Numbered from the stretch's first letter, positions 1,563-39,420 are shown. The stretch is DNA of 54,789 nucleotides from Oscillatoriales cyanobacterium PMM_0019 (GCA_949127975.1 CASBRB010000089.1:1-54789), one strand, 5' to 3'. Notes: generated from the sequence alone by a model not told the origin. Numbers and translations: made by a program.

Positions 1563-1653
1563 CAGGACTTACGCAACTACACTACATATAGCGGTTCGTA
1601 GGGGCAATCCCCCTGTGGTTGCCCCTATATATGCCCAGCCTGCGTAAGTCCTG
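1563..1653 (+). repeat. ~91-bp small dispersed repeat (SDR/MITE-like), copy 1
   Basis: Terminal inverted repeats CAGGACTTACGCA...TGCGTAAGTCCTG surround an inner palindrome GTAGGGGCAATCCCCCTGTGGTTGCCCCTA. The same element recurs at about 9 other loci in the window. Confidence 0.85.
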
Positions 1654-7454: not shown

Positions 7455-7528
7455 GGGTATTACTCTCAAAAGCGTTGAACTGCATCAGAGATGGCATCAG
7501 GAAAATCAATCATTGGCAACCGAGCAGG
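7455..7528 (+). repeat. Left copy of a 74-bp diverged direct repeat (3' fragment of the alphaCTD-like gene)
   Basis: By hand alignment it matches 12267-12340 at about 66 of 74 positions. In the cognate frame it reads GITLKSVELHQRWHQENQSLATEQ, versus GITLDSVELRQRWHQENQSLATEE in the intact gene. Confidence 0.85.
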
Positions 7529-9527
7529 TAACCACATGCAACAGTTGTCCCTGCCTTTGAATTTACCTGGGATCTACCCTAACAATCAGGTATGGTTTCA
7601 GGAGATGTTGCGCGAACTCGGCATCAGTTGCGTTCGCGCGTACCCCGATCGATTTGGTTTATCTGTGGGCAACTGGCTAGCTCAACAAAGTTATCCAACT
7701 ATTAGAACCCTAAGCTTGTTTTCTGGTGGTGGGGGACTGGATATTGCCTTTCATGATGCTGGCTTCGACATTGTTCAGATGGTTGAGCTTGAAGCCAAGT
7801 ATATAAAGACGCTAGAGATAAACTCAATGCCGGGGAAATGGCTAGAGAACGCCAAACCAATCTGTATCGACATCAGACAGTATTTTCCCAGTCCAGATCT
7901 AAATATTGACTTTATCATTGGCGGGCCACCTTGTCAAACCTTTTCTGCCGCAGGTCGTAGAGCCGCTGGGGTTGCGGGAACTAGCGATGCTCGTGGCATT
8001 CTGTTTCAAGAGTATGTACGCATACTCAAAACGCTTCAACCAAAAGGATTCCTGTTTGAAAATGTTTATGGCATGACGGGAGCCCAACAAGGGGAAGCTT
8101 GGCAAGAAATCCAAAATGCCTTTCAACAAGCGGGCTATACAATTCATTTTCGTGTTTTAGATGCTGCTGATTACGGCGTACCGCAGCATCGAGAACGTTT
8201 ATTTATTGTTGGACTTCGGGAAGGTAATTATATGTTTCCCTATCCAACACATGGTCCCGATTCTCCCGATGGAGAACCTTTCTATATAGCTGGAGAGGCA
8301 GTTGCAGGGGCTGATACATCTGATGTACAGGCAGGTATTGGCGGACGATACGGGCATCTGCTGACTGAGATTCCCCCAGGACTAAATTATAGCTTTTACA
8401 CCAAAGAAATGGGGCATCCTAATCCAATATTTAGCTGGAGATCGAAGTTTTCTGACTTTTTATACAAAGCAGATCTCCAGATGCCAGTGCGGACAATTAA
8501 AGCACAGGGAGGGCAATATACTGGTCCTTTTAGTTGGGAAAACCGCCGATTCTCAATTGCAGAATTGAAGCGACTGCAAACAATCCCTGACGACTATAAG
8601 CTTGTAGGAAACCGCCAAGTCTGTATTGAACAGATTGGAAATTCAGTACCGCCACAATTGGGGAGAATTTTGGCTCTTAGTATCTTGGATCTCATTATGG
8701 GCGTCAAACTGCCATTTCCTATGCATTACTTGCCAGCATCTAAGCAGTTGGGATTTAGACAGCGGAAGCGCCAACTGACAGAAATATATGCTCAAAAGGC
8801 TAAAGACGCAATAGCCAACTTACCGCTGACAAAACAACCACCCTCTCAGGTATTATCTGACTGTGTTATTCAAGGGCAGACTGTGCGATTCTTGTCTGCT
8901 GATTTTGCTTGGAATAAAAAACATTTTTCTAGCAGCTTCCAAATTAACCTGACATATGAACTAAATAATTCTTGCTGGACGATTACCGCGCTAACTGATG
9001 AGACAAGAAAAGATGAAAATCTCTATTTCATTGAAATATGTCCAACTTGGGGTTACGAAAATTGGGTTCTAGGCACAGGCAAAGTCAAACTATGTGCTAG
9101 GGATTTAGACAAACGTTTATTTACAGCACTTTGGAAAGCGTTTGAGGAAAAAGTGAGCGAGGTGACTGGGATGGCTGATTTGGTTCAGCTATCTGGCTAT
9201 TACCAATACAACCCTCGAATTAGTGGGGTTTTGACTGTTCAACACAACTTAAAAGTCGAGCCATTCTGGCGTGTCGTTCAATGTGTTGTCAGGGGAATAG
9301 GGGTTGCTACCCAACTATCCGCTCAAGGACTAGCATTGCTATGGGGTGTTAATGCCGATGAGGTTTTTTCTTACCTCCACTGCTTGCGCGGCATGGGTTA
9401 TGAAGTCAGAAACCATAACACTAACCCTCAAATTCCTAAAGGAGAGTATTTAATCCCCTATGGGTTTCCCACACTAACGTCGAAAAGCGTACAACTCCGC
9501 AAGCAGTTGGGAGAAGGTGATGAGTGA
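7491..9527 (+). CDS. dcm: DNA (cytosine-5)-methyltransferase with a ~270-aa C-terminal extension
   Basis: Motif I LSLFSGGGGLD, motif IV GGPPCQTFSAAG, motif VI ENV, motif VIII QHRERLFIVG and motif X IGNSVPPQL are all present. A TGCTATAAT extended -10 lies at 7444-7452. The real start may be the ATG at 7536 (MQQLSLPL), because the first 12 codons lie inside the repeat. Confidence 0.9.
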   Translation: MASGKSIIGNRAGNHMQQLSLPLNLPGIYPNNQVWFQEMLRELGISCVRAYPDRFGLSVGNWLAQQSYPTIRTLSLFSGGGGLDIAFHDAGFDIVQMVELEAKYIKTLEINSMPGKWLENAKPICIDIRQYFPSPDLNIDFIIGGPPCQTFSAAGRRAAGVAGTSDARGILFQEYVRILKTLQPKGFLFENVYGMTGAQQGEAWQEIQNAFQQAGYTIHFRVLDAADYGVPQHRERLFIVGLREGNYMFPYPTHGPDSPDGEPFYIAGEAVAGADTSDVQAGIGGRYGHLLTEIPPGLNYSFYTKEMGHPNPIFSWRSKFSDFLYKADLQMPVRTIKAQGGQYTGPFSWENRRFSIAELKRLQTIPDDYKLVGNRQVCIEQIGNSVPPQLGRILALSILDLIMGVKLPFPMHYLPASKQLGFRQRKRQLTEIYAQKAKDAIANLPLTKQPPSQVLSDCVIQGQTVRFLSADFAWNKKHFSSSFQINLTYELNNSCWTITALTDETRKDENLYFIEICPTWGYENWVLGTGKVKLCARDLDKRLFTALWKAFEEKVSEVTGMADLVQLSGYYQYNPRISGVLTVQHNLKVEPFWRVVQCVVRGIGVATQLSAQGLALLWGVNADEVFSYLHCLRGMGYEVRNHNTNPQIPKGEYLIPYGFPTLTSKSVQLRKQLGEGDE

Positions 9528-10833
9528 GTTGCACCTGCGCGTATTTAAAAAGCGAAGTGAGCTAGTGCTAACTGATGGTAGTACAGAAGTTTTTTTAGAG
9601 GGAGGAATGAGTCAATCAGCTAAACTAAAATCTCACAAAATAGCTAGAGAACTTGCTAATGGCTATCTAGAAGAACAAATTATTATTTGCAGAGATAAAG
9701 TAACGTATCTTGACTTTTCACAACTTAGCCAGATTCATCTAGATACCCTCAATAGACTTGTGGAATCAGTAACTAGCGAAGTGGGCAGGGCACTGGTAGG
9801 GTTAACAGTTCTGCAATTATGTGTAAAAGCAATTGAGCCTAGCCAAAATATTAGGCTACATAAAGGTAGTGCAAGTGCCAGAGATTTTTCATGGCAAGAT
9901 GGTATTTCAATGCGCTCCTTAGATAGGCAACATATAACCCCAGTTTTACGTAAATATAATTTGCTGAAGCTGAACGCCGATGGATTTATGATGACCCGCA
10001 GCCTAGCAGAAAATTATCCTTACTCACCAGTGTATAAAGCTAATCTCAGAGGCGCACGCCAAGAATGGCTTAATATTGTAGAGGGGATTGAAGCTAACGA
10101 ATTAGCTCCCAAACCAGCACTGCATTATTTACTGTCACAACTTTTAAATCAAGCGAGTGCTTTTAAACAATTAGCTACACAAACAATAGCAGCTCTCGAA
10201 CAATTTTTAGAAGAAGCCGAATATGTCAATCGGGAATATATAACCAAACTGATAGTTAGACATATCAATGAGTCTGATTATGCGGCACGGATTATGGAAA
10301 TCGCTATTCACAGTATGTTCCAAGCAATGGAAGAACTTCAATTTTTCCCTGATGGCTCGTTGAAGCCTCTTTCACAAATGCGATCGGCTAATAAAAAGCA
10401 TGGCAATATAGGCGATATTGAAATATTAGAAGCCAGACAGATTATTGAAGCATGGGATGCTAAGTATGGTAAAGCATACTTGCGAGATGAACTGGAAGAA
10501 CTAGCAGATAAGCTGGAAGCACACCCGACTGTTGTATGGGCTGGATTTATAACAAGTGTTGAACCCGATCGACAAGAAGAATTACTATCTCGATGTGAGG
10601 AAATAGAAGATGAGTTTGGTCTTTCTATAGAGATAGTATCGCTTAGAGATTGGATTACAAAGCAATTTAGTCGGGCAATGGCAGGGGGAATGCTAACAGA
10701 GCAAGAATTAGCAAGCGCTTGGATTACAGCTTATGCTGAGTCTCTAGCTCAAAAACGCCGAGAGATTGCTCCTATTGACGAACCTTGTCATCAGTGGCTT
10801 ACAACTCTGAAGGCTATTTTGGAAAACTCTTGA
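9520..10833 (+). CDS. Putative restriction endonuclease partner of the m5C MTase
   Basis: Its start overlaps the dcm stop (GTGATGAGTGA). A candidate PD-(D/E)xK signature is present: GDIEILEARQIIEAWDAKYGK, i.e. D...x13...DAK. I recognise no family. Confidence 0.5.
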   Translation: MSELHLRVFKKRSELVLTDGSTEVFLEGGMSQSAKLKSHKIARELANGYLEEQIIICRDKVTYLDFSQLSQIHLDTLNRLVESVTSEVGRALVGLTVLQLCVKAIEPSQNIRLHKGSASARDFSWQDGISMRSLDRQHITPVLRKYNLLKLNADGFMMTRSLAENYPYSPVYKANLRGARQEWLNIVEGIEANELAPKPALHYLLSQLLNQASAFKQLATQTIAALEQFLEEAEYVNREYITKLIVRHINESDYAARIMEIAIHSMFQAMEELQFFPDGSLKPLSQMRSANKKHGNIGDIEILEARQIIEAWDAKYGKAYLRDELEELADKLEAHPTVVWAGFITSVEPDRQEELLSRCEEIEDEFGLSIEIVSLRDWITKQFSRAMAGGMLTEQELASAWITAYAESLAQKRREIAPIDEPCHQWLTTLKAILENS

Positions 10834-11393: not shown

Positions 11394-11904
11394 ATGCCTG
11401 CCTATAGTTATATTTACTCAGTGTTGTTTACGACTTGAGAAACACTCCTCCCGGATTGCTTTCTCTTTTTTCCCCCAGTAACTCTCATCCGTGAGATGAT
11501 CCCCAGGGGGAAAAAGATCTTGTCTATATTTATTTTTACCATTTTATTTTAAAGTGTCAAGTATTAAGTAAAATTAAGTATTCCGGTATACATCATCAGA
11601 TAGACAAGTCGCGTCCAATACCTTTTTATCTGATCCCAGATAAGTTTAGTTTTATAATAGATACTTTTGTCACGATCCCTAATTTATATATATATTGTTA
11701 AAGGCTGGAATATCTGCAGATGTAAGTCACCGAAGAGGGAGAGGGAGCAAATATACCCTCACCCTAGAAAGGTGGGGCTACACGGGATGGGAGCCTGCCT
11801 AACGCTACGCTAACGCCTGCGGCTGACGCAGGCTATAATTTAGGTAGCCTTAGTACGCGCGAGCCCGCACCGACCTGTAGCTGTCCTAGGTGAGGCAGAG
11901 CAAT

Positions 11905-12423
11905 ATGACTGATTTCGAGCAATTAATTCGAGTTGTTGGCACCGAAAGAATTCTCAAACTCCTTCAAGAGGTAGCCAAGCAAGCGATTGATGGGGGGGAT
12001 TGGTTCAAAGTCCGGCAGATTACTGATTTAGTGCTTCAAATCACTGAGCATCCTGTCACTCGGCATACAGAGCTTGAGCCAAATACGGAAAGCCCCCTAG
12101 TACCGTTGACAACCCTCAACATTTCCACTCGATGCCTAGAGTTACTTACAAAAGTTGGTATCAACACCGTAACAGCCCTACAACGCTACAGTTTGGAAGA
12201 CTTACTTCAAATCAATGGCATTGGGGAAGTGGCGGCGAAGCAGATAGACAGGGGTTTGCAGGAAAAGGGCATTACTCTAGACAGCGTTGAACTGCGCCAG
12301 AGATGGCATCAGGAAAATCAATCCTTGGCAACCGAGGAGGTCTTCGCAGATGCAGCGGTGAGTCAGACTTTAGGTGAGGAGGGGGAGTTTGAGCAAGCAA
12401 CTCCGGAAAACTTTTTGGGATAG
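11905..12423 (+). CDS. RNA polymerase alpha-subunit C-terminal-domain-like (helix-hairpin-helix) protein
   Basis: LNISTRCLELLTKVGINTVTALQRYSLEDLLQINGIGEVAAKQI matches the RpoA alphaCTD HhH pattern. I prefer the ATG at 11905 over the GTG at 11890 used in the ORF track. Confidence 0.6.
   Translation: MTDFEQLIRVVGTERILKLLQEVAKQAIDGGDWFKVRQITDLVLQITEHPVTRHTELEPNTESPLVPLTTLNISTRCLELLTKVGINTVTALQRYSLEDLLQINGIGEVAAKQIDRGLQEKGITLDSVELRQRWHQENQSLATEEVFADAAVSQTLGEEGEFEQATPENFLG
12267..12340 (+). repeat. Right copy of the 74-bp direct repeat (inside the intact alphaCTD-like gene)
   Basis: See 7455-7528. The two copies lie 4812 bp apart in direct orientation. Confidence 0.85.
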
Positions 12424-12969: not shown

Positions 12970-13554
12970 TCAAGTTGCCCTCCTATCTTTCCCAAAAACT
13001 TCAGAAGCTTTTAAATTAAGTTCCCTAAATCCGGGAGATGGCAGTAAATCATCATTGCTAAAACTACCAACTTCTGTATAAGTATCGCCTGTAAGTTCTA
13101 GGATGAGAATGGTTTGAGTTTGGGGATCGACAATCCAATATTCGGGAATCCGACAATCTTGATATTGCGTTCTTTTGGCGATGTAGTCTCTATCTTTTTG
13201 TATATTTCCGGGACTAACTATTTCAATAACTAATAGAGGGGGTAACATTGAAAGGCGAATAGTGTTGCGCTTTGATAGTTGTTGAATATGTTCTTCTCGG
13301 ATGATGGTTAGATCGGGATAGCGGTTTTTGGGTTCGCCTCTGACTTCTAATTCTAGTCCTTGCGCCCTAACTCGATCGGTTCCTATAATTAAGGCAAAAA
13401 ATAAAAAAATTCGATTGGCAATTTGGATATTTAATCCTGATTCTGGAGGCATTTCGATCAATTCTCCGTTAAATAGTTCATAAAATTTTTCGGAATAGTC
13501 GTCGTATAGTAGATACTCTTCAAAAGTTTCAAATCGAGGTTTAACGGTTAACAT
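12970..13554 (-). CDS. Uma2 family (DUF820) endonuclease
   Basis: YELFNGELIEMPPES...PDLTII...PPLLVIEIVSPGN...RIPEYWIVDP is the typical Uma2 PD-(D/E)xK layout. I start it at the internal ATG (MLTVKPRF) so that it does not overlap the upstream gene. Confidence 0.85.
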   Translation of the reverse strand: MLTVKPRFETFEEYLLYDDYSEKFYELFNGELIEMPPESGLNIQIANRIFLFFALIIGTDRVRAQGLELEVRGEPKNRYPDLTIIREEHIQQLSKRNTIRLSMLPPLLVIEIVSPGNIQKDRDYIAKRTQYQDCRIPEYWIVDPQTQTILILELTGDTYTEVGSFSNDDLLPSPGFRELNLKASEVFGKDRRAT

Positions 13555-13585
13555 CAGATTTACTCCATGCAATGGGTTAGCTGTG

Positions 13586-15022
13586 CTATTTGATAAGTGG
13601 CAAGTCGCGGAGAAAATAAAATCGATCGTTCTGCCAATCAACCCCCTTGTTTCGTCCTAGGTAGCCAGTCAAGGGCGAGGAAAGCTCGATCAGAATTTCG
13701 TACAGTTCTTGAGGCTGTAACGGAGTCGGCGGATTTGAGTGGGCATAAGCTCCATGCAATCCTTCAACCCCAGCTTGCTCAAATTTGGTGTTTTCTAAAT
13801 GTTTTTTAACCAGCTCGACGAGGTGCGATCGTAACTTAATCTCATTGTAAACTTTATTAATATATTTCCCAACCTCATCATCAGACTGACCTGGCTTCAA
13901 GTAATCCTTTAGCTTAAACAAGTCTACTGAGTGAGGATACAGGCTTTCTAGTTTTACCAGCTTTTCAAGCGTCTCAGGGTTAATAATCGCCATACCATGT
14001 ACCTTTGCAGCGTCTTCAAGTTGCTCAGTAGGCTTGCCAGGGCCAATAATTAGCTTAGCTGTTTTCTTTAACAATTCTAGGTTTTTGAGGCGTAGCGTTC
14101 CCAAGTTCAACAGCTGCACTGCGGTATCGTTGGGAATCTTTTTGCCAGCTTTGCACTCCCCAACCAGAGGATAAGGTTTTGAGCAGAATAAATCTAAGCC
14201 ACCAGCACCGCCTTTGTGGGCATAGTCAACCGTGAATCCGAGAAACTCTAGGCTATCACGGACTATGTTTTCAAAATCTGTTCCAGCTTGATAGTTACTT
14301 TTGTCCGTATCTTGTTCTGTGCTGCGATTTCCTAAGTCGGCAATTGTGTTTACCCAGGATAAATCTGGTTTAGGTTGGTGAGTGGGGGTACTAGCCCAAC
14401 CCAAGAATTGTTTAATTTTGTAATTTAGCTGTTGGGTAGCTGGGTTATCTAGTTGAGCTAAAGCACCCTGCAATTCTTCCAATTCCGGGTGCGGTGGCGG
14501 CAGTCGATTTTCTAGCTGGTGTCGGCGCTGGGCGAAAATGCGATCCCTCAACACTGGCTCCGAAGCCTCAAAAGTCTGGGGATTCGATAAAGGAATAAAG
14601 TTCTTTTTGGAATACACCGACATCGGCACAGGCACAGGCAATTGATAAACGCGCAAGTAAGTCAGGAATATATTACCCCGCTGTGCGAGTATTTCCTGTA
14701 AGCCTTTAGTTGTCCATAATGTTAGTTGCGACAAGGCAGCTAAAGACTCGGCATCATTCAAAACTTGGCATAGTTCGCACTTTGCCCAGGCTTTAATCTT
14801 AACCGCCTCATAACTCAGTTGAGCGAGAGCTGTTTTGGCGATGGGCAAAAAATCCGAGCGGTAGTGTTGCTCCGCTGGCAGTGGGTTAATTGAAGCATCA
14901 CAGGGATAAAGAGCGAATTGCCGCCCCGGCTCGATAAATATCCGAGGTATAACTGCAATCGTTCGCCCTTCCAGTAAAGCTTCTATGTCTGGAGCCGATA
15001 GACGCAAGGCAGTGTCAATCAA
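13586..15022 (-). CDS. DUF1802-like N-terminal domain fused to an Mrr-like (PD-(D/E)xK) restriction endonuclease domain
   Basis: The N-terminal ~130 aa (IEALLEGRTIAVIPR...FALYP...KAWAKCE) resemble cyanobacterial DUF1802. The C-terminal part is FENIVRDSLEFLGFTVDYAHKGGAGGLDLFCSKPYPLVGECKAGKK, i.e. D...ExK as in Mrr_cat. The apparent start codon is TTG. Confidence 0.6.
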   Translation of the reverse strand: MIDTALRLSAPDIEALLEGRTIAVIPRIFIEPGRQFALYPCDASINPLPAEQHYRSDFLPIAKTALAQLSYEAVKIKAWAKCELCQVLNDAESLAALSQLTLWTTKGLQEILAQRGNIFLTYLRVYQLPVPVPMSVYSKKNFIPLSNPQTFEASEPVLRDRIFAQRRHQLENRLPPPHPELEELQGALAQLDNPATQQLNYKIKQFLGWASTPTHQPKPDLSWVNTIADLGNRSTEQDTDKSNYQAGTDFENIVRDSLEFLGFTVDYAHKGGAGGLDLFCSKPYPLVGECKAGKKIPNDTAVQLLNLGTLRLKNLELLKKTAKLIIGPGKPTEQLEDAAKVHGMAIINPETLEKLVKLESLYPHSVDLFKLKDYLKPGQSDDEVGKYINKVYNEIKLRSHLVELVKKHLENTKFEQAGVEGLHGAYAHSNPPTPLQPQELYEILIELSSPLTGYLGRNKGVDWQNDRFYFLRDLPLIK

Positions 15023-15152
15023 ACCTAATTCCTCATTTGATATACTAATTATAGTGTAGTACTTCTGTAAAATACTAATTTACAAAACCAAGCTGAAAGG
15101 AACATCAAGCCCAGTACCACATTCTCCGCTGCAATGACGATGCCAGAAATAT

Positions 15153-15184
15153 TGTAGGTTGGGTTGAGGAACGAAACCCAACAT
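15153..15184 (+). repeat. ~33-bp dispersed repeat TGTAGGTTGGGTTGAGGAACGAAACCCAACAT
   Basis: Identical cores occur at 39438-39470, 42692-42724 and 42746-42778. The element is a hairpin: GTTGGGTT...AACCCAAC. Confidence 0.85.
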
Positions 15185-15265
15185 TAAGATTTGAAAACAT
15201 TGGATTGTACTTTTAAAATTCAGCCCATCGATTAGTATAATTTATCAGACTAAGTCAGAACTTAG

Positions 15266-15466
15266 TCTGACTGGGCATATATAGCAACCGCCAAGGCGGT
15301 TAAGTGCGTGATCCGCTCTTGTAGGGTGCGTTAATGAAATGTAACGCACCATCTATATGCTAATTTTCGGTGCGTTACGAGTCAAGCTAACACACCCTAC
15401 TCAAGGGCAACCACAGAGGGATTGCCCCTACAAACCGCTATATGTAGAGGCAGGACTACAGTACTG
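15266..15466 (-). repeat. Reverse-oriented SDR copy split by a nested ~120-bp insertion of a second repeat family
   Basis: ctgactgggcatatata ... gggcaaccacagagggattgcccctacaaaccgctatatgtagaggcag is interrupted by an element with GTAGGGTGCGTTA...TAACACACCCTAC inverted ends. Confidence 0.7.
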
Positions 15467-15493
15467 TAAGTATGAGAAAGCCGGTTTACCCGC

Positions 15494-17290
15494 CTATTCG
15501 ACTAAACCGCTAGGAATCTCACCAGTAGGTTCACTCAGAATCTCGCGGATAACAGCATTTTCAACTGCTAACTTTTTCTGAGCAATAAAATCAAGGACTT
15601 CCTTCTCACTCAAATTGTAACCTTCACGACTAACATATACAGCGTGGATAGCTAAAATATTTTTGATATCCTCAGTTGTAGGATTCACCCATTTACCGAA
15701 TTTTGAAGACAAAAATTGACTTAAAATCTCTTGAGATTGAGTTGCCTTGGAACTAATTTTTTTAGAACGAACTAAGCAGCCACGGCTTAAACCAAAAATT
15801 TTGTATGCAGTTAATCGCTTCAATCCAGCTAGAACACCCCTAGCATGAGAATATTGCAGAACAGATACTCCAATTTTGACTGTTTTACCGTTGGCTTTAC
15901 CCTTAAGTTTGAAGTCAATATAATCTTGGTTTTGGTTTTTAGGTTCAACTTCTTCGATGCCCTCGACTTTTACTGTTTCTATGGTTTCTCCAATTAGGCT
16001 AGAGAAGCTGAAGCGAAGAGCATCTGCAAGTGGCTGCTTATCGTCTAGCAATTTTTTTATAGACTTTTCAACAACTGTAAGCTCCTTAGTGAAAGCAGCT
16101 TCAACAGTATCAAGCGGTGGTGGCGGTGATGGCGGTGTAACTGTGAAATGCTCTGCACACCATTGCAGAACTTGTCTTACAGTCGGTTTTTCTTTATTCA
16201 GTTCTCTAAGCTTGTTTTCGTCAAAGGGATAGATACGATGATGTGGAACTAAATTTTTGGCTTTGTAAAACTCTTTGAGCCATAGGGCGACTAGCTCAAC
16301 AATAGTTTCACCCTCCATATGTTTCAAAGCAATTGGCTCTCTTGTTGCGGTGGAAAGTCGATAAAGAATGCCACCAGGAAGCGACTTAATTTTTCGACTC
16401 CATGTGTCCGGTAACATCATTGTTAACAAAACAACACCGCGACTGTTACTAGCTACATTAATACTGTTGAACAGATCTTTAACTAATTCAGCCACCACCT
16501 GTGCTTGCGTAAAACCAGCTTCGTTAAGGCTAGTTCCCTCTAGCTCATCAAAACATATCAGTACCGCTTTAATTTCATTCAGCAAACTCAATGTTTGCAG
16601 GAGAATTTCAAAGGCTTTTGCTTCTGTAAAATGTGGTTCGGGATTGGGCAAACCCAGTTCAGCAGCTTTGGCTTCAGATAGAGCATTTGCAGATAACCAT
16701 TTAATTGCATAGGGTGCATGCTCTTCGGAGAGTGTCCATAAAATAGCTCTGATAATATCCGGATCGATGTTGCCGTTATTTTTCAGAACTGTTGTTGTTA
16801 AGTTATCGATTAACTTGGGATTTTTACTCAAGGCAAAGGGAAATTTATTGGCAACCATCTCCCGAGGAGAAGCCTGGTTTTTTGAAAACCTATTTACCAG
16901 AGCTGTAGCTAGTTCTTGCCAATGATTTACCCCTTCTGCCCCATGCTGGTTAAGACTTTTTGACCAATTTTGTAAAAACTCGTGCTTAATCCGGTCTAAG
17001 TTACTCAACTTACTAGCGCTGGCATAAACAACTATAGTGTTGCCCTCAGTTTGCAGATGGTGGTACAGGCGGCGAATGATGTGGGTTTTGCCAACTCCTT
17101 GTTCTGCTGTTATAGTAATCGAGGTAACTTTGGCTTCACCAGAACCAACTTGTTTAATTGCCTGAATAATCTTGTCAGAAGCATGAGCATTTAATGTCGG
17201 CAAATCGAGATTTTTTTTTATTCCAAATGTCTGGAATTCTGACAGCGGCACCTCGATCAACAAAAGGGTTGTGACTTTTAATAGCAGCAT
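15494..17290 (-). CDS. P-loop NTPase, paralog B of the 18138-19991 gene (5' end displaced by an A9 frameshift; the true start is probably the ATG at 17327)
   Basis: Walker A AEQGVGKTH and Walker B LICFDELEG are present. I estimate about 55-60% identity to paralog A along the whole length. The upstream frame from 17327 encodes MTSKNASPIEELNAAIKSHNPFVDRGAAVRIPDIWNKK, which matches the N-terminus of paralog A. Confidence 0.75.
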   Translation of the reverse strand: MLLLKVTTLLLIEVPLSEFQTFGIKKNLDLPTLNAHASDKIIQAIKQVGSGEAKVTSITITAEQGVGKTHIIRRLYHHLQTEGNTIVVYASASKLSNLDRIKHEFLQNWSKSLNQHGAEGVNHWQELATALVNRFSKNQASPREMVANKFPFALSKNPKLIDNLTTTVLKNNGNIDPDIIRAILWTLSEEHAPYAIKWLSANALSEAKAAELGLPNPEPHFTEAKAFEILLQTLSLLNEIKAVLICFDELEGTSLNEAGFTQAQVVAELVKDLFNSINVASNSRGVVLLTMMLPDTWSRKIKSLPGGILYRLSTATREPIALKHMEGETIVELVALWLKEFYKAKNLVPHHRIYPFDENKLRELNKEKPTVRQVLQWCAEHFTVTPPSPPPPLDTVEAAFTKELTVVEKSIKKLLDDKQPLADALRFSFSSLIGETIETVKVEGIEEVEPKNQNQDYIDFKLKGKANGKTVKIGVSVLQYSHARGVLAGLKRLTAYKIFGLSRGCLVRSKKISSKATQSQEILSQFLSSKFGKWVNPTTEDIKNILAIHAVYVSREGYNLSEKEVLDFIAQKKLAVENAVIREILSEPTGEIPSGLVE

Positions 17291-17370
17291 TAAGTTCTTC
17301 GATTGGAGATGCGTTTTTGCTAGTCATGGTAGATATTTATGAGGTAGAAAAGTAGACAAAATTAAGTTTA

Positions 17371-17461
17371 CAGGATTTACGCACTGCCTCTACATATAGC
17401 GGTTTGTAGGGGCAATCCCCCTGTGGTTGCCCCTACATATGCCCAGTCTGCGTAAGTCCTG
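17371..17461 (+). repeat. SDR copy
   Basis: caggatttacgcactgcctctacatatagcggtttgtaggggcaatccccctgtggttgcccctacatatgcccagtctgcgtaagtcctg. Confidence 0.85.
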
Positions 17462-17462
17462 T

Positions 17463-18131
17463 TTAGGATAAACCCTGGGCATAGTAGCGCAAGCCACTTA
17501 GTTCTGTTTCGATTGAGTCTTCAGCTTTATCAGGGGTGATATCTGGCATCTCTCCTCCCATAAACTGAAAAATATCGTTTGCCTGCATCTCCAGCATCCA
17601 CTTATCAAACTGGGCGCGAGTGACGCGGGAACCTATTTCCCGCCGAATCCGATATATCGGCACTAGGTTATCTAGGTTGTAGTCGCGGTTAAGTTGGTTG
17701 TAGACATCTACTGCCACTTGCTTAAACTCTTCGTAGGATGAAATCTTACTTGCCTCATGCGCCGCCACCCCATTACCTAGCGTTCCCATCTGCCTCATCC
17801 ACTTCAACAACGCATTGGCTGTTTTAGCTCCTATTTGGCTGTCAAACTCAAATTCAGGGCTATTCAGTGTCTCGCCCAGCATCTGGACACCTGTGGCAGA
17901 GAGAGTTATTTTATTTTTAGAGAGTGCGATCGCTCCTACTTTCTCCAATTGTTCAAATATGCCCTGATAATCTCCAGCTTTCTCGTGCTTCCGTTTAACT
18001 CGTTTAGTTAATTCACCTTTCTTAACTTCTGACTCAGTTCCTCCTATATCCCACATGGCAAGCAGCACGCGAGTTTTGGTTTGGGCTTCATTAGCCCCTG
18101 GCTGTTTATCTGTTGCTGGCATCTTAATCAC
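17463..18131 (-). CDS. Uncharacterised 222-aa protein, probably two winged-helix-like halves, co-transcribed with NTPase paralog A
   Basis: It starts 6 nt after the stop of the 617-aa gene. I recognise no family. The pattern GELTKRVKRK...IFEQLEKVGAIAL and LVPIYRIRREIG...FDKWMLEMQ suggests wHTH-type modules. Confidence 0.6.
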   Translation of the reverse strand: MIKMPATDKQPGANEAQTKTRVLLAMWDIGGTESEVKKGELTKRVKRKHEKAGDYQGIFEQLEKVGAIALSKNKITLSATGVQMLGETLNSPEFEFDSQIGAKTANALLKWMRQMGTLGNGVAAHEASKISSYEEFKQVAVDVYNQLNRDYNLDNLVPIYRIRREIGSRVTRAQFDKWMLEMQANDIFQFMGGEMPDITPDKAEDSIETELSGLRYYAQGLS

Positions 18132-18137
18132 ACCTAA

Positions 18138-19991
18138 CTAACTAACTAAATCATCAGGAATCTTTCCAGACGGTTCACTGAGAATTTCCCGGATCACATC
18201 ATTCTCAACCACCAGCTTATTTTGCTCAATAAAATCACTAATTTGCTCTTTGCTTAACTCGTAATCTTCCCTCGCCCTCGAAACAAACAACATAGCTAAA
18301 AGCGGCTTTATGGCATCGGCTTTCAGTGGTACCCATTTACCGCCCAACTCAGGAGACAAAAGTTTCCTCAAACAGTTTTGGGCTTCAGTAGCATTAGCAC
18401 TAATTTCTTTAGAGCGCACTAAGCAACTACGAGTAATATCAAACTTCTTATACTCAATAATTCGCTTTAATCCAGCTAGCACACTATTGCCATTATCTTG
18501 CTGAATAATAGCCACCCCAATCTTGACTGTTTCCCCGTTTTGGTTACCGATGATTTTGAAATCAAAGTAACCTTTGTTTAAACTTTGAGGTTCTACTTTT
18601 TCCAGCTTCTCAATTTTTACCGTTTCTATGGTGTGTCCAATAGCATTAGAGAAGCCTAGCAACAGGGCAGCAGCAATTTTAGGCTTATCCTCTAATAAAG
18701 TTTCTATAGATTCTTCCACAGCTACCAGCTCTTTATTGAAAGCAGCTTCAACAGGATGAGTGGTTGCTGTTTGAGGTGCAAAATGATGGGCACACCAACT
18801 TAAAACTTGTCTTACAGTTGGCTTTTGTTTAGCCAGTTCTCTCAGCTTGCTTTCGGTAAAGGGATAGACAGGATCGTTACTCAGTAAGTTTCTTGATTCA
18901 TAAAACTCTTTCAGCCAGAGGGTGACTAACTTAACAATAGAGTCACCATCCATATATTTCAACTCAATCGGCTCTGGTGTTGCGGATGAAACCCGATATG
19001 GTATCCCACCAGGCAGCGACTTAATTTTAAGTTCCCATGTGTCTGGTAGCATTGCTGTTAAAATAACAACCCCTCTACTGCTACTTTCTAAATCAAGCCT
19101 GTCAAATATATTTTTAACTAAGACAGCCACAACCTGTGCTTTCGTAAACCCAGAATCACTGAGATTAACTCCCTCTAGTTCGTCCAAACATATCAGCAGC
19201 GTTTTATAGTCACTAATCAAACTCAAGATTTGCAGGATAAAATCAAAAGCTTTAGCTTCTCGATATTCTGGTACGTGATTTGGTAGCCCAAGTTCGGCTG
19301 CCTTTGATTCAGATAAATCGTTGCCCGATAACCACTTAATTGCGTAAGGCGCGTGAGATAAAGAAAGTGTCCAAAAAATAGCTCTGATAATATCGGGATC
19401 TGTCTTGGGTTTTATATTGACAGCTACTGCCGTCAGGCTGTCAATATAATTAGGATTTTTTTCTAGAGCAGATGGAAAGTTCTTCTCTACTAAATCATGG
19501 GGGTGCTTACTTATTTTTTCGGCTTGGCTAATTTTATCGACATGTTTGTAATTTCCTATTAAGATATCGATCGCTAGTTCTTGCCACTGTTTTAATCCTT
19601 TGCTACCAACCTGGTTAAGGCCCTGGGACAAAGTTTGTAAAAATTGGTAGTTAATCAGTTTTAAATCAGTAAAGTTACTGGCGCTGGCATAAACAAATAA
19701 AGCATCGCTCTCATTTAGCAGCCTATGGCGAATCCGACTAATCGTGTGAGTTTTGCCAACTCCTTGTTCTGCTGTTATAACTAAAGATGTAACTTTGCCT
19801 TGACCAGAGCTAACCTGTTTAATCGCTTGCAGAACGGCGTCAGAAGCATGAGCATTGAGACTGGGAACATCAGGGAATCCTTGAACCCAAACATCTTGAA
19901 CCCGAACGGCAGCACCTCTATCAACAAAGGGGTTGTAACTTTGGATAGCAACGTTAAGCTCCGAGATGGTGGTAGTCATAGTACTGGTCAT
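18138..19991 (-). CDS. P-loop NTPase, paralog A (AAA/STAND-like, uncharacterised)
   Basis: Walker A AEQGVGKTH and Walker B LLICLDELEG. The N-terminal NPFVDRG motif and the C-terminal ~150 aa (VENDVIREILSEPSGKIP) are shared with paralog B. Confidence 0.8.
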   Translation of the reverse strand: MTSTMTTTISELNVAIQSYNPFVDRGAAVRVQDVWVQGFPDVPSLNAHASDAVLQAIKQVSSGQGKVTSLVITAEQGVGKTHTISRIRHRLLNESDALFVYASASNFTDLKLINYQFLQTLSQGLNQVGSKGLKQWQELAIDILIGNYKHVDKISQAEKISKHPHDLVEKNFPSALEKNPNYIDSLTAVAVNIKPKTDPDIIRAIFWTLSLSHAPYAIKWLSGNDLSESKAAELGLPNHVPEYREAKAFDFILQILSLISDYKTLLICLDELEGVNLSDSGFTKAQVVAVLVKNIFDRLDLESSSRGVVILTAMLPDTWELKIKSLPGGIPYRVSSATPEPIELKYMDGDSIVKLVTLWLKEFYESRNLLSNDPVYPFTESKLRELAKQKPTVRQVLSWCAHHFAPQTATTHPVEAAFNKELVAVEESIETLLEDKPKIAAALLLGFSNAIGHTIETVKIEKLEKVEPQSLNKGYFDFKIIGNQNGETVKIGVAIIQQDNGNSVLAGLKRIIEYKKFDITRSCLVRSKEISANATEAQNCLRKLLSPELGGKWVPLKADAIKPLLAMLFVSRAREDYELSKEQISDFIEQNKLVVENDVIREILSEPSGKIPDDLVS

Positions 19992-20036
19992 AGTAATTTA
20001 TATCGAGTCGTGGAAAAAGATAATATCCGGTTGCTT

Positions 20037-21353
<1,317 letters not shown>

Positions 21354-29974: not shown

Positions 29975-30065
29975 CAGGACTTACGCACTGACTCTAAATA
30001 TAGCGGTCTGTAGGGGCAATCCCCCTGTGGTTGCCCCTATATATGCCCAGTCTGCGTAAGTCCTG
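29975..30065 (+). repeat. SDR copy
   Basis: caggacttacgcactgactctaaatatagcggtctgtaggggcaatccccctgtggttgcccctatatatgcccagtctgcgtaagtcctg. It begins 6 nt after the cobD stop. Confidence 0.85.
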
Positions 30066-39348: not shown

Positions 39349-39420
39349 GTAGAGACAGCGGTTGGTAGGGGCAATCCCCCCGTGGTTGCCCCTATATATG
39401 CCCAGTCTGCTACAGTACTG
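39349..39420 (+). repeat. SDR variant copy
   Basis: gtagagacagcggttggtaggggcaatccccccgtggttgcccctatatatgcccagtctgctacagtactg. Confidence 0.7.

What the first reader, a model, noticed from the sequence alone, without database searches (positions are those of the whole stretch)
15494..19991. Uncharacterised cassette: two paralogous ~600-aa P-loop NTPases flanking a 222-aa winged-helix-like protein, inside a defence-island context
Seen in the sequence:
- The genes at 18138-19991 and 15494-17327 are full-length paralogs. They share the N-terminal NPFVDRGAAVR motif, Walker A AEQGVGKTH, Walker B L(I/L)C(F/L)DELEG and a conserved C-terminal ~150 aa ending VENxVIREILSEPxGxIP. Some DNA stretches are identical, for example tttgccaactccttgttctgctgttata at about 17090 and about 19750.
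- A 222-aa ORF starts 6 nt after paralog A.

I cannot place any of the three proteins in a named family. The NTPase looks AAA/STAND-like, with no recognisable effector domain.

Context: the neighbours are an Mrr-like nuclease fusion, a Uma2 nuclease and two R-M systems, and the cassette is bounded by dispersed repeats.

Inference: this is a candidate novel NTPase-based conflict or defence system, or possibly a plasmid- or phage-derived partition or packaging module.
Basis: partly seen in the sequence, partly recalled or inferred. Interest (0 to 1): 0.7.

Follow-up and report, generated by a model that had tools for sequence, protein, structure and literature searches.

The report
Cyanobacterial winged-helix, ATPase and nuclease operon
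The two look-alike ATPase genes are real, but the conserved unit is an uncharacterised three-gene cyanobacterial operon (DNA-binding protein, ATPase, Mrr-type nuclease), probably a new DNA-cutting defence system, plus one leftover ATPase gene.

Summary
The paralogy, shared motifs and 222-aa ORF are real. Paralog B (15494-17327) is not intact: one extra A in an A9 run (17211-17219) breaks its frame, and the frameshifted copy is found in three assemblies.

Across about 95 cyanobacterial loci the invariant order is S (tandem winged helix, ~225 aa), N (AAA_16/Orc1-like ATPase, ~620 aa), M (DUF1802 + Mrr-like PD-(D/E)xK nuclease + winged helix, ~480 aa). 72 of 77 N genes have S upstream, and 72 of 77 have M downstream. 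In one clade N is fused to the Mrr half of M.

In the window the operon is S (17463-18131), B, and the "neighbouring" nuclease gene (13586-15022). Paralog A belongs to a clade of orphan ATPases beside folC, left from an older decayed triplet.

PADLOC, NCBIfam, PHROGs, PDB and a literature search name neither the system nor DUF1802. No relatives were found on phages. The only plasmid hit was a remote archaeal ATPase.

Best reading: an ATP-dependent, DNA-targeting nuclease defence system, new in composition and untested. Outside the folC-acnB hotspot there is little defence-island enrichment.

The parts
18138..19991 (-). N_A: intact orphan AAA_16/Orc1-like P-loop ATPase (617 aa; public aa). It sits directly beside the divergently transcribed folC.
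   Evidence: ORF. AAA_16 scores 34.8 bits against a gathering cut-off of 32.6. It clusters with P0002, P0003 and P0004, a clade whose members lack their own S and M and lie in the folC-acnB gap, most directly beside folC. S pseudogene remnants lie upstream of orthologs in L019 and L020.
17463..18131 (-). S: 222-aa tandem winged-helix protein, the first gene of the conserved S-N-M operon.
   Evidence: 1460 homologs; every source name among the best 120 listed is cyanobacterial. The model has pLDDT 83 with two winged-helix domains, residues about 11-90 and 133-220. Foldseek gives only generic MarR-type winged-helix hits. S lies directly upstream of N for 72 of 77 N genes.
17328..17462 (.). Spacer between S and N_B holding a dispersed hairpin repeat (MITE/REP-like). 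The core GTAGGGGCAATCCCCCTGTGGTTGCCCCTAC is at 17406-17436.
   Evidence: Further copies at 1598, 30010 and 39365, against 0 expected by chance. It forms an inverted pair with 15405-15469. The median tblastn gap between S and N elsewhere is 65 nt.
15494..17327 (-). N_B: the canonical-position ATPase of the operon, disrupted by a +1 frameshift in an A9 run (17211-17219). Otherwise intact (610 aa after removing one A).
   Evidence: The identical A9 run is in assembly GCA_038226575.1, which differs by 31 SNPs over 11 kb. The 598-aa truncated product is present in three assemblies. Walker A and B are intact.
15023..15493 (.). Spacer between N_B and M filled with repeat elements (15256-15284 and 15405-15469). 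It holds weak promoter-like sites just upstream of M.
   Evidence: The median N-M gap elsewhere is 120 nt.
13586..15022 (-). M: 478-aa predicted effector. It has an N-terminal DUF1802 beta-rich domain (possibly ASCH/PUA-like), a Mrr-like PD-(D/E)xK nuclease core (invariant E251, D277, E289, K291) and a C-terminal winged helix.
   Evidence: DUF1802 E = 2.7e-32 and Mrr_cat E = 7e-3. Mrr_cat matches 9 of 25 homologs. The model has pLDDT 79. Foldseek gives weak restriction-endonuclease (EndoMS, Cap4), ASCH and ORC/Cdt1 winged-helix hits. M lies directly downstream of N for 72 of 77 N genes. It is fused to N in P0008-11, P0013, P0016, P0017, P0376 and P0389.
12970..13641 (-). Uma2-family putative nuclease immediately after M. 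It may be a hitch-hiker rather than a component.
   Evidence: Uma2 E = 6e-31. PADLOC candidate PDC-S03 E = 4.5e-69. In L018 a Uma2 gene lies between N and M. Uma2 also occurs near several other loci.

Best explanation
The window holds a decayed copy of a widespread, unnamed, three-gene operon whose named homologs are all cyanobacterial.

Components:
- S, a tandem winged-helix DNA-binding protein.
- N, an AAA_16/Orc1-like P-loop ATPase with a conserved C-terminal alpha/beta domain.
- M, a DUF1802 - Mrr-like PD-(D/E)xK nuclease - winged-helix protein.

In the window the operon is S (17463-18131), N_B (15494-17327, frameshifted in an A9 run) and M (13586-15022). MITE-like repeats have been inserted into both spacers.

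N_A (18138-19991) is an older paralog. It is the surviving ATPase of a second, earlier triplet beside folC that lost its own S and M. One intact copy of each component therefore remains: N_A, S and M.

Proposed mechanism (inferred):
- The ATPase acts as an ATP-driven switch or oligomeriser on DNA, together with S, which is either a DNA-recognition subunit or the operon's regulator.
- The ATPase licenses the Mrr-type nuclease to cut DNA.
- DUF1802 either docks M onto N or reads the state of the DNA, for example modified bases.
- The role is defence against phage or other incoming DNA, either restriction-like or abortive.

Shown: gene order, the N-nuclease fusions, intact catalytic motifs, predicted folds and the decay history. 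Inferred: DNA cleavage, ATP control and the defence role.
For: Synteny:
- S, N, M in that order in 12 of 12 genome loci with enough flank.
- Over all loci, 72 of 77 N genes have S upstream and 72 of 77 have M downstream.
- Tandem triplets occur in L011 and L047.

Fusions:
- N is fused to the Mrr and winged-helix half of M, without DUF1802, in one clade. L005 shows the two-gene form S + N-Mrr.
- Other N fusions carry DNA-binding modules: SeqA_C-like (E = 3e-5, just under the cut-off) and HTH_40.

Motifs and folds:
- Invariant G77, G79, K80 and D270 in N.
- Invariant E251, D277, E289 and K291 in M, whose nuclease core is its most conserved part.
- S is two winged helices.
- M gives restriction-endonuclease, ASCH and winged-helix hits in two structure libraries.

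Accessory, decaying behaviour:
- The folC-acnB gap differs between related genomes and also holds R-M, HicAB and Uma2.
- L020 has a clean deletion of N and M relative to L022, at 91% nucleotide identity.
- S pseudogenes lie upstream of orphan N genes.
- N_B carries a frameshift.
- The two ATPase genes have about 40% GC, against 45-51% in the flanks.

No hit reaches significance or a curated cut-off for S, N or M in PADLOC, NCBIfam or PHROGs. No paper mentions DUF1802 in this sense.
Against: - There is no experimental evidence.
- Neighbours of the operon in 13 other genomes are mostly housekeeping genes. Few have PADLOC hits: Uma2 x4, one TnpB, one Csx1 and one or two restriction enzymes among 94 ORFs. 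The guilt-by-association test is therefore only weakly passed.
- The Mrr_cat match is below Pfam's cut-off (16.9 against 21 bits).
- The ASCH-like assignment rests on Foldseek E-values of 0.03-0.35.
- The ATPase was not modelled, so its subclass and C-terminal domain are unresolved.
- The operon has no methyltransferase, so self/non-self discrimination is unexplained.
- Orphan N_A orthologs persist intact without adjacent S or M (L019, L091). This may mean the ATPase has a role of its own.
Confidence: 0.6

Rival explanations
1. Abortive-infection sensor of the STAND/Avs type. N recognises a phage protein or another infection cue through its variable insert or C-terminal domain, oligomerises with ATP, and switches on the Mrr nuclease to destroy all DNA in the cell. 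S only represses the operon.
For: - N matches NACHT/NPHP3_N/KAP-type P-loop models in many members (NPHP3_N 24 of 41, KAP 33 of 41).
- One distant member passes the NB-ARC cut-off.
- Mrr-like effectors on STAND ATPases are known from Avs4 (own knowledge). There are weak Avs4 P-loop hits.
- The most variable part of N is the insert at residues 141-200.
- An AGTATTTT motif, and in some loci a palindrome, lies upstream of S, as expected for an autoregulated operon.
Against: - No repeat-type sensor domain (TPR, LRR or WD40) is present.
- Avs4 models score far below cut-off (11 against 1500 bits).
- Alternative fusions are DNA-binding modules, not protein-binding ones.
- The closest annotated ATPase is BREX-type, ORC/Cdc6-like.
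Confidence: 0.2
2. A lineage-specific housekeeping DNA-transaction module, for example repair, replication restart or chromosome maintenance, rather than immunity.
For: - It is found across many cyanobacterial orders.
- Its neighbours are mostly housekeeping genes.
- N_A orthologs at the folC locus diverge about as much as FolC itself (61-71% against 67-76%), consistent with long vertical inheritance.
- There are weak DnaA/Hda/DnaC-type P-loop hits.
Against: - Genomic location varies between genera.
- Tandem divergent copies, presence/absence polymorphism between 91%-identical genomes, pseudogenes and frameshifts all occur.
- Effector and DNA-binding modules are swapped by fusion.
- GC content is lower than in the flanks.
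Confidence: 0.13
3. A self-contained cassette of two cooperating paralogous NTPases plus a winged-helix protein, or a plasmid- or phage-derived partition or packaging module. The nuclease is an unrelated neighbour.
For: - An N_A-S-N-M layout recurs in L022. N_A plus S alone occurs in L020. Two ATPases also occur in Aphanothece (L016).
- N_A stops 6 nt before S.
Against: - Only the folC-locus lineage has two ATPases, and their order differs: S-N-M-N2 in L016.
- 72 of 77 N genes have exactly one S and one M.
- S pseudogenes upstream of N_A orthologs show the layout arose by decay.
- N_B is frameshifted.
- N-nuclease fusions tie the nuclease to the system.
- There are no phage relatives, and the only plasmid hit is a remote archaeal ATPase.
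Confidence: 0.05

Closest known systems
AVAST type 4 (Avs4): STAND ATPase with a Mrr-like nuclease effector
   Same: A P-loop ATPase is coupled to a Mrr-family PD-(D/E)xK nuclease, fused in some members here. The likely logic is NTP-dependent activation of a DNA-degrading effector.
   Different: - There is no TPR or other repeat sensor.
- The nuclease is C-terminal or a separate protein, not N-terminal.
- There is an obligatory separate winged-helix partner.
- Avs4 profiles score only 11-13 bits on the P-loop.
BREX ATPases BrxC/BrxD (ORC-Cdc6-type AAA+; PF10923)
   Same: - This is the closest annotated sequence relative of the ATPase module. An archaeal "BREX system ATP-binding domain" protein shows 23.5% identity over residues 65-401, E = 3e-6.
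- The Walker A to Walker B spacing is similar.
- BrxC and BrxD are classed as ORC-Cdc6 AAA+ proteins that oligomerise and, for BrxC, bind DNA (PMC12839542).
   Different: - PF10923 scores below its cut-off (14 against 22.2 bits) and matches 1 of 41 members.
- The operon has no PglX, PglZ, BrxA, BrxB or BrxL.
- The effector here is a nuclease.
McrBC and other type IV (modification-dependent) restriction systems, including Mrr and PUA/ASCH-nuclease fusions (PMC6765204)
   Same: - An NTPase subunit is paired with a separate PD-(D/E)xK nuclease subunit.
- The catalytic core is Mrr-family.
- There is a possible PUA/ASCH-like reader domain N-terminal to the nuclease.
- No cognate methyltransferase is present.
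   Different: - N is not a McrB-type AAA_5 GTPase, and no McrB or McrC profile matches.
- A third winged-helix subunit is present.
DS-41 ("AAA2"), a single-gene E. coli defence ATPase validated in the DefensePredictor study (PMC13092281)
   Same: Paralog B gives a weak ATPase-domain match to NCBIfam DS41_1: E = 6.5e-4, residues 54-275 against model positions 38-247.
   Different: The score is 18.8 bits against a cut-off of 370. DS-41 is a single gene with no S or M partner.

Membership tests
Pfam AAA_16 (Orc1-like AAA ATPase domain) / P-loop NTPase | The profile match reaches the gathering score, and Walker A GxxGxGK[ST] and Walker B hhhhDE are present. | tested here: met
   A scores 34.8 bits against a cut-off of 32.6. 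B scores 32.3, just under. 41 of 41 family members match at E <= 0.01. G77, G79, K80 and D270 are invariant.
KAP family P-loop NTPase | A full-length KAP profile match, with transmembrane helices inserted in the P-loop domain. | tested here: inconclusive
   B scores 25.1 bits, above the cut-off of 20, and A scores 19.2, below it. Only the first ~85 of 293 model positions align. 33 of 41 members match. Transmembrane insertion was not tested formally, and no hydrophobic segment is evident by eye.
STAND ATPases (NACHT / NB-ARC / Avs) | A NOD module (P-loop, helical domain and winged helix) plus a repeat-type sensor, with family profiles above cut-off. | tested here: not met
   For Avs4, PADLOC gives E = 3e-3 (12.6 bits) and NCBIfam gives 11 bits against 1500. 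NACHT matches 2 of 41 members and NPHP3_N 24 of 41, on the P-loop only. No repeat domain was found. The ATPase fold was not modelled.
BREX (BrxC/BrxD ATPase as part of a BREX system) | PF10923 above cut-off, plus PglX methyltransferase and PglZ in the locus. | tested here: not met
   PF10923 scores 14 bits against 22.2 and matches 1 of 41 members. No PglX or PglZ was found around the cassette.
McrBC type IV restriction | A McrB AAA+ (AAA_5) GTPase and a McrC nuclease. | tested here: not met
   There are no AAA_5, McrB or McrC hits for N or M in Pfam, PADLOC or NCBIfam.
Mrr-like PD-(D/E)xK nuclease (Pfam Mrr_cat) | A profile match above cut-off, a conserved D...(D/E)xK catalytic motif and a restriction-endonuclease fold. 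| tested here: inconclusive
   The profile scores 16.9-17.9 bits against a cut-off of 21. 9 of 25 homologs match at E <= 0.01, best 4.5e-4. The motif is present and invariant: E251, D277, E289, K291. Foldseek gives EndoMS (prob 0.98), Cap4, and viral "restriction endonuclease" and Mrr hits, all at E > 1e-3.
Pfam DUF1802 | A profile match above the gathering score. | tested here: met
   112.4 bits against a cut-off of 25, covering residues 5-169 and the whole 174-position model. 25 of 25 homologs match.
ASCH / PUA-like reader domains | A beta-barrel ASCH fold, with a significant profile or structure match. | tested here: inconclusive
   hhalign against E. coli YqfB, whose sequence was recalled from memory, gave probability 0.1%. 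Pfam gives no ASCH hit. Foldseek gives several ASCH structures (TRIP4 8yfi and 9kyl, ZmASCH 5y6b/5y6c/5guq/5gus) and TTHA0113 (2dp9, taken as ASCH-like from memory) at E = 0.2-0.35 and TMt 0.42-0.59. A phage ASCH protein scores E = 0.03, prob 0.99, TMt 0.51.
Winged helix-turn-helix (protein S) | The H-H-H-beta-beta winged-helix fold. | tested here: met
   The AlphaFold model (pLDDT 83) shows two such units. MarR-family structures match with prob 1.00 but E of about 8e-3. There is no specific family assignment.
Known or candidate defence systems in PADLOC-DB 2.0 / NCBIfam antiphage models | Any component matches a system model significantly. | tested here: not met
   S and M match 0 families. 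N has its best hit at E = 2.7e-3, on the P-loop only. NCBIfam gives nothing near a cut-off. Only the neighbouring Uma2 gene matches candidate PDC-S03.

The most novel reading that the evidence does not exclude
S-N-M is a previously undescribed, cyanobacteria-wide immune system. An ORC/Cdc6-like ATPase, guided by a tandem winged-helix partner, licenses an ASCH-like-Mrr nuclease to cut foreign DNA, possibly DNA in an unusual modification state. Orphan ATPase paralogs kept beside folC serve as interchangeable or back-up ATPase subunits. The window would then be a natural case of subunit replacement: N_B is inactivated by an A-run slip while N_A, S and M stay intact.
Probability: 0.35. Interest if true: 0.75.

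Novelty: new variant of a known kind. Interest (0 to 1): 0.6.

Why it matters
Cyanobacteria are under-sampled for experimentally validated phage defence, and most discovery pipelines depend on defence-island association. This operon mostly lacks that association.

A three-gene ATPase-nuclease system with thousands of homologous proteins and no name would add a new architecture to the ATPase-plus-nuclease class. The named homologs come from Nostocales, Oscillatoriales-type filaments, Leptolyngbya-like and unicellular lineages.

It would also give first functional leads for Pfam DUF1802 and for a new winged-helix family. It could explain barriers to genetic transformation in filamentous cyanobacteria.

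The locus is also a clear natural series of system decay: tandem triplets, an orphan ATPase, a frameshift and a clean deletion.

Tried and rejected
- Sequence-profile searches of S, N and M against PDB chains found nothing significant. A weak YTH-domain match to N residues 196-269 (E = 3e-3) is treated as chance.
- hhalign of M against E. coli YqfB (ASCH) gave no similarity. hhalign of N against M and of S against M showed no internal homology.
- I considered whether the window order A-S-B-M is a circular permutation of the Aphanothece order S-N-M-N2. This was rejected. B is not the ortholog of the Aphanothece N (47% identity). S pseudogenes upstream of A-type genes point instead to decay of tandem triplets.
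- Gene conversion between A and B is not supported. The longest identical run is 30 nt, reached in 1.5% of codon shuffles, and it lies at Walker A.
- Phage or plasmid origin is not supported. There was no match in IMG/VR or the phage database. The plasmid database gave one remote archaeal hit.
- Defence-island enrichment around 13 other loci is weak.
- Literature searches for DUF1802 and PF08819 found nothing relevant.
- Cluster look-ups for distant N relatives returned no organism names.

Full report
**1. What is in the window**

On the minus strand, reading 5' to 3', lie the following:
- N_A, 18138-19991, 617 aa.
- S, 17463-18131, 222 aa. It starts 6 nt after N_A. Public annotation uses an ATG 9 nt further on, giving 219 aa.
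- A 135-nt spacer.
- N_B, 15494-17327.
- A 471-nt spacer.
- A 478-aa gene, 13586-15022, with DUF1802 and a weak Mrr_cat match. I call this gene M.
- A Uma2 gene.

N_A and N_B are clear paralogs: 56% amino-acid identity over 580 residues and 69% nucleotide identity. The identical 28-mer is real. It sits in the Walker A region and is only mildly longer than expected, being reached in 1.5% of codon shuffles.

**2. Paralog B is broken**

The ATG at 17327 opens a frame that reads ...NPFVDRGAAVRIPDIWNKKK and then runs into stops. The long ORF (15494-17290) is in another frame.

The break is an A9 run at 17211-17219. Removing one A gives a 610-aa protein with no other defect. It is colinear with N_A: DIWNKKNLDLPTLNAHASD against DVWVQGFPDVPSLNAHASD.

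Assembly GCA_038226575.1 is 99.72% identical over 11 kb (31 substitutions, no gaps) and has the same A9. The truncated 598-aa product is on contigs from three assemblies. The frameshift is therefore unlikely to be a one-off read error.

From general knowledge, RNA polymerase slips on A runs of this length, so some in-frame product is possible. I did not test this.

**3. The true conserved unit**

Using S as the query, 14 cyanobacterial genome loci were retrieved. In every one, S is followed on the same strand by an N homolog. In 12 of 12 loci with enough flank, N is followed by a homolog of M.

Using an N alignment, 80 metagenome loci were added. Over all loci, 72 of 77 N genes with at least 800 nt upstream have S directly upstream (median tblastn gap 65 nt). 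72 of 77 with at least 900 nt downstream have M directly downstream (median gap 120 nt).

Two loci (L011, L047) carry two divergent S-N-M triplets in tandem.

In one clade the ATPase is fused through a linker to the Mrr and winged-helix half of M, without DUF1802. These are P0008-11, P0013, P0016, P0017, P0376 and P0389, about 895-930 aa. L005 shows that this form is a two-gene system, S + N-Mrr.

The window's operon is S, N_B, M.

**4. What paralog A is**

In an NJ tree N_A groups with P0002, P0003 and P0004. N_B is sister to the N-Mrr fusion clade.

All five N genes that lack their own S and M lie in the same chromosomal gap, downstream of PilM-SBP-folC. Four sit directly next to folC. The fifth, L016's N2, lies beyond that locus's S-N-M triplet. 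Four of the five belong to the N_A clade, with 61-71% identity to N_A.

The gap between folC and DUF4278-acnB differs among related genomes:

| Locus | Content of the folC-acnB gap |
|---|---|
| Window | N_A, S, N_B (frameshifted), M, Uma2, three small genes, an R-M pair |
| L022 | N_A, S, N, M |
| L020 | N_A, S, HicAB |
| L019 | N_A and the same R-M pair |
| L016 (Aphanothece) | S, N, M, N2 |
| L018 (Trichocoleus) | S, N, Uma2, M |

Decayed S fragments lie upstream of the N_A orthologs in L019 (E = 3e-7) and L020 (with in-frame stops).

L020 and L022 are 91% identical. L020 has a clean 3.4-kb deletion that removes N and all but the last codons of M.

The simplest history is two tandem triplets, with loss of S and M from the first. 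The window then also lost N_B to an A-run slip. One intact copy of each component remains: N_A, S and M.

N_A orthologs remain intact at about the same divergence as FolC (61-71% against 67-76%), so they are probably still functional. One N_A-clade member is Cri9333_4649 of the cultured strain Crinalium epipsammum PCC 9333.

**5. The repeats**

A hairpin repeat (core GTAGGGGCAATCCCCCTGTGGTTGCCCCTAC) occurs four times in the window. Inverted 65-nt copies at 15405-15469 and 17368-17432 bracket N_B. These are small dispersed elements sitting in the two intergenic spacers of the operon. They do not mark the borders of the cassette.

**6. Component identities**

*N (ATPase)*
- AAA_16 matches 41 of 41 members, and N_A is above the gathering score. 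AAA_22 matches 39 of 41, KAP 33 of 41 and NPHP3_N 24 of 41. All of these matches are on the P-loop region.
- The closest annotated relative in the plasmid collection is an archaeal "BREX system ATP-binding domain" protein: 23.5% identity, residues 65-401, E = 3e-6.
- BrxC and BrxD are classed as ORC-Cdc6 AAA+ proteins (PMC12839542). Weak DnaA/Hda/DnaC hits agree with this.
- N has a variable insert at residues 141-200 between Walker A and B. It also has a conserved C-terminal domain of about 200 aa with no assignable family.

*S (winged helix)*
- The AlphaFold model (pLDDT 83) shows two winged-helix domains joined by a disordered linker.
- Foldseek gives only generic MarR-like hits.

*M (nuclease)*
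- The model has pLDDT 79.
- The DUF1802 region is a beta-rich domain. In both structure libraries it draws ASCH-domain proteins at weak E-values (0.03-0.35, TMt up to 0.59).
- The middle domain has invariant E251, D277, E289 and K291. It gives weak Mrr_cat, EndoMS, Cap4 and restriction-endonuclease matches.
- The C-terminal domain resembles ORC/Cdc6/Cdt1 winged helices.

*Other fusions*
- Other C-terminal fusions of N are a SeqA_C-like domain (24.3-24.6 bits against a cut-off of 25.5), HTH_40 and an unknown domain.
- The identifiable ones are DNA-binding modules, which argues that DNA is the target.

**7. Is it known?**

PADLOC-DB 2.0, NCBIfam 20 and PHROGs give no hit for S, N or M that reaches significance or a curated cut-off. 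The best are P-loop-only matches (PADLOC E = 2.7e-3). One of these is a sub-threshold match to the DS-41 ATPase family, a validated single-gene E. coli system.

No paper in the library mentions DUF1802 or PF08819 in this context.

The family is large:
- 1359 representatives of 50%-identity clusters match N at E <= 1e-3, and 141 at E <= 1e-30.
- 1460 clusters of S and more than 2176 of M were found.
- Every organism name returned among the listed hits is cyanobacterial.

**8. Function**

Shown:
- A strictly conserved three-gene operon.
- ATPase-nuclease gene fusions.
- Intact ATPase and nuclease motifs.
- Winged-helix and other DNA-binding modules.
- Accessory, decaying and duplicating behaviour, and residence in a variable hotspot that also holds R-M and toxin-antitoxin genes.
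- Lower GC (about 40%) than the flanks.

Inferred: an ATP-controlled, DNA-targeting nuclease complex used in defence.

DUF1802 is dispensable when N and the nuclease are fused. It may therefore be the docking domain onto N. Alternatively it may be an ASCH-like reader of DNA state.

Against a defence role:
- The neighbourhoods in 13 other genomes are mostly housekeeping genes.
- No relatives were found on phages. The only plasmid hit is remote.
- Nothing has been tested experimentally.

I put the structural re-interpretation at about 0.9 and the defence mechanism at about 0.5-0.55. The overall confidence is 0.6.

**9. Verdict**

A defence-like NTPase system is plausible, but the unit was wrongly delimited, the effector was missed, and the partition or packaging alternative is unsupported.
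- Novelty: a new variant of the known ATPase-plus-nuclease kind of conflict system.
- Interest: 0.6.

Noticed in passing
L016, L020, L022, L006, L074, L098, L079, L055, L073 and others, 28-125 nt upstream of S; absent from the window: A motif AGTATTTT(TAC) lies upstream of S in 18 of 79 loci. In L020 and L022 it is part of a perfect palindrome, GGTAAAAATA-AG-TATTTTTACC. Microseira-type loci instead carry the palindrome TCTAAATTTAGA at about -106. These are candidate promoter or operator sites for S. The window has no copy, because S follows N_A directly.
   Followed up: partly
L002 9308-9565, L003 8013-8270, L004 5383-5652, L011 4377-4700, L047 1922-2305, L063 4294-4629, L093 1331-1660: An extra gene or fragment encoding only the N-terminal winged helix of S lies 0.4-1.7 kb upstream of S in several loci. 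In L002 and L004 it has a near-copy of S's own upstream region. It may be a partial duplicate or an extra regulator.
   Followed up: no
L020 8848-8897 against L022 8743-12122: Two genomes that are 91% identical differ by a clean 3.4-kb deletion. It removes N and M but keeps N_A, S and the last codons of M. The C-terminal tail of S also switches between two widespread sequence types (…EMPDITPDKAEDSI…RYY and …SVEDSAPDKIEDSI…RCY).
   Followed up: partly
window 7491-10833, and L019 10264-13504: A C5 cytosine methyltransferase (678 aa) and an adjacent unassigned 438-aa ORF are conserved as a pair (77-79% identity) in the same folC-acnB gap of another genome. This is probably an R-M pair with an unrecognised restriction enzyme.
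   Followed up: partly
window 1598-1628, 17406-17436, 30010-30040, 39365-39395; degenerate copy at 15405-15432: A dispersed, perfectly palindromic hairpin repeat (GTAGGGGCAATCCCCCTGTGGTTGCCCCTA[CT]) occurs in intergenic DNA throughout the window. It looks like a small cyanobacterial MITE/REP-type element.
   Followed up: partly
window 19992-20100: The starts of folC (plus strand) and N_A (minus strand) are only about 20-100 nt apart, depending on the true folC start. This leaves almost no room for two divergent promoters. In relatives the gap is 144-382 nt and can hold S pseudogene remnants.
   Followed up: partly
P0371, P0372, P0391 (N homologs of 803-806 aa): Some N-family ATPases end in a domain matching the SeqA C-terminal domain, the hemimethylated-GATC binding domain, just under Pfam's cut-off (E about 3e-5). 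Others (P0412, P0413, P0419) carry an unassigned ~180-aa domain after an acidic linker.
   Followed up: partly
L021 (Natronosalvus rutilus plasmid NZ_CP100356.1, 205206-218120): The nearest plasmid-borne relative of the ATPase domain is annotated as a BREX ATP-binding domain protein. It sits beside two tRNA-guanine transglycosylase-like genes, a neighbourhood reminiscent of the Dpd 7-deazaguanine DNA-modification systems.
   Followed up: no
window 11890-12423: A 177-aa ORF with an RNA polymerase alpha C-terminal-domain/helix-hairpin-helix fold lies inside the variable gap. It has a weak PADLOC match to a PglW segment (E = 3.8e-4).
   Followed up: no
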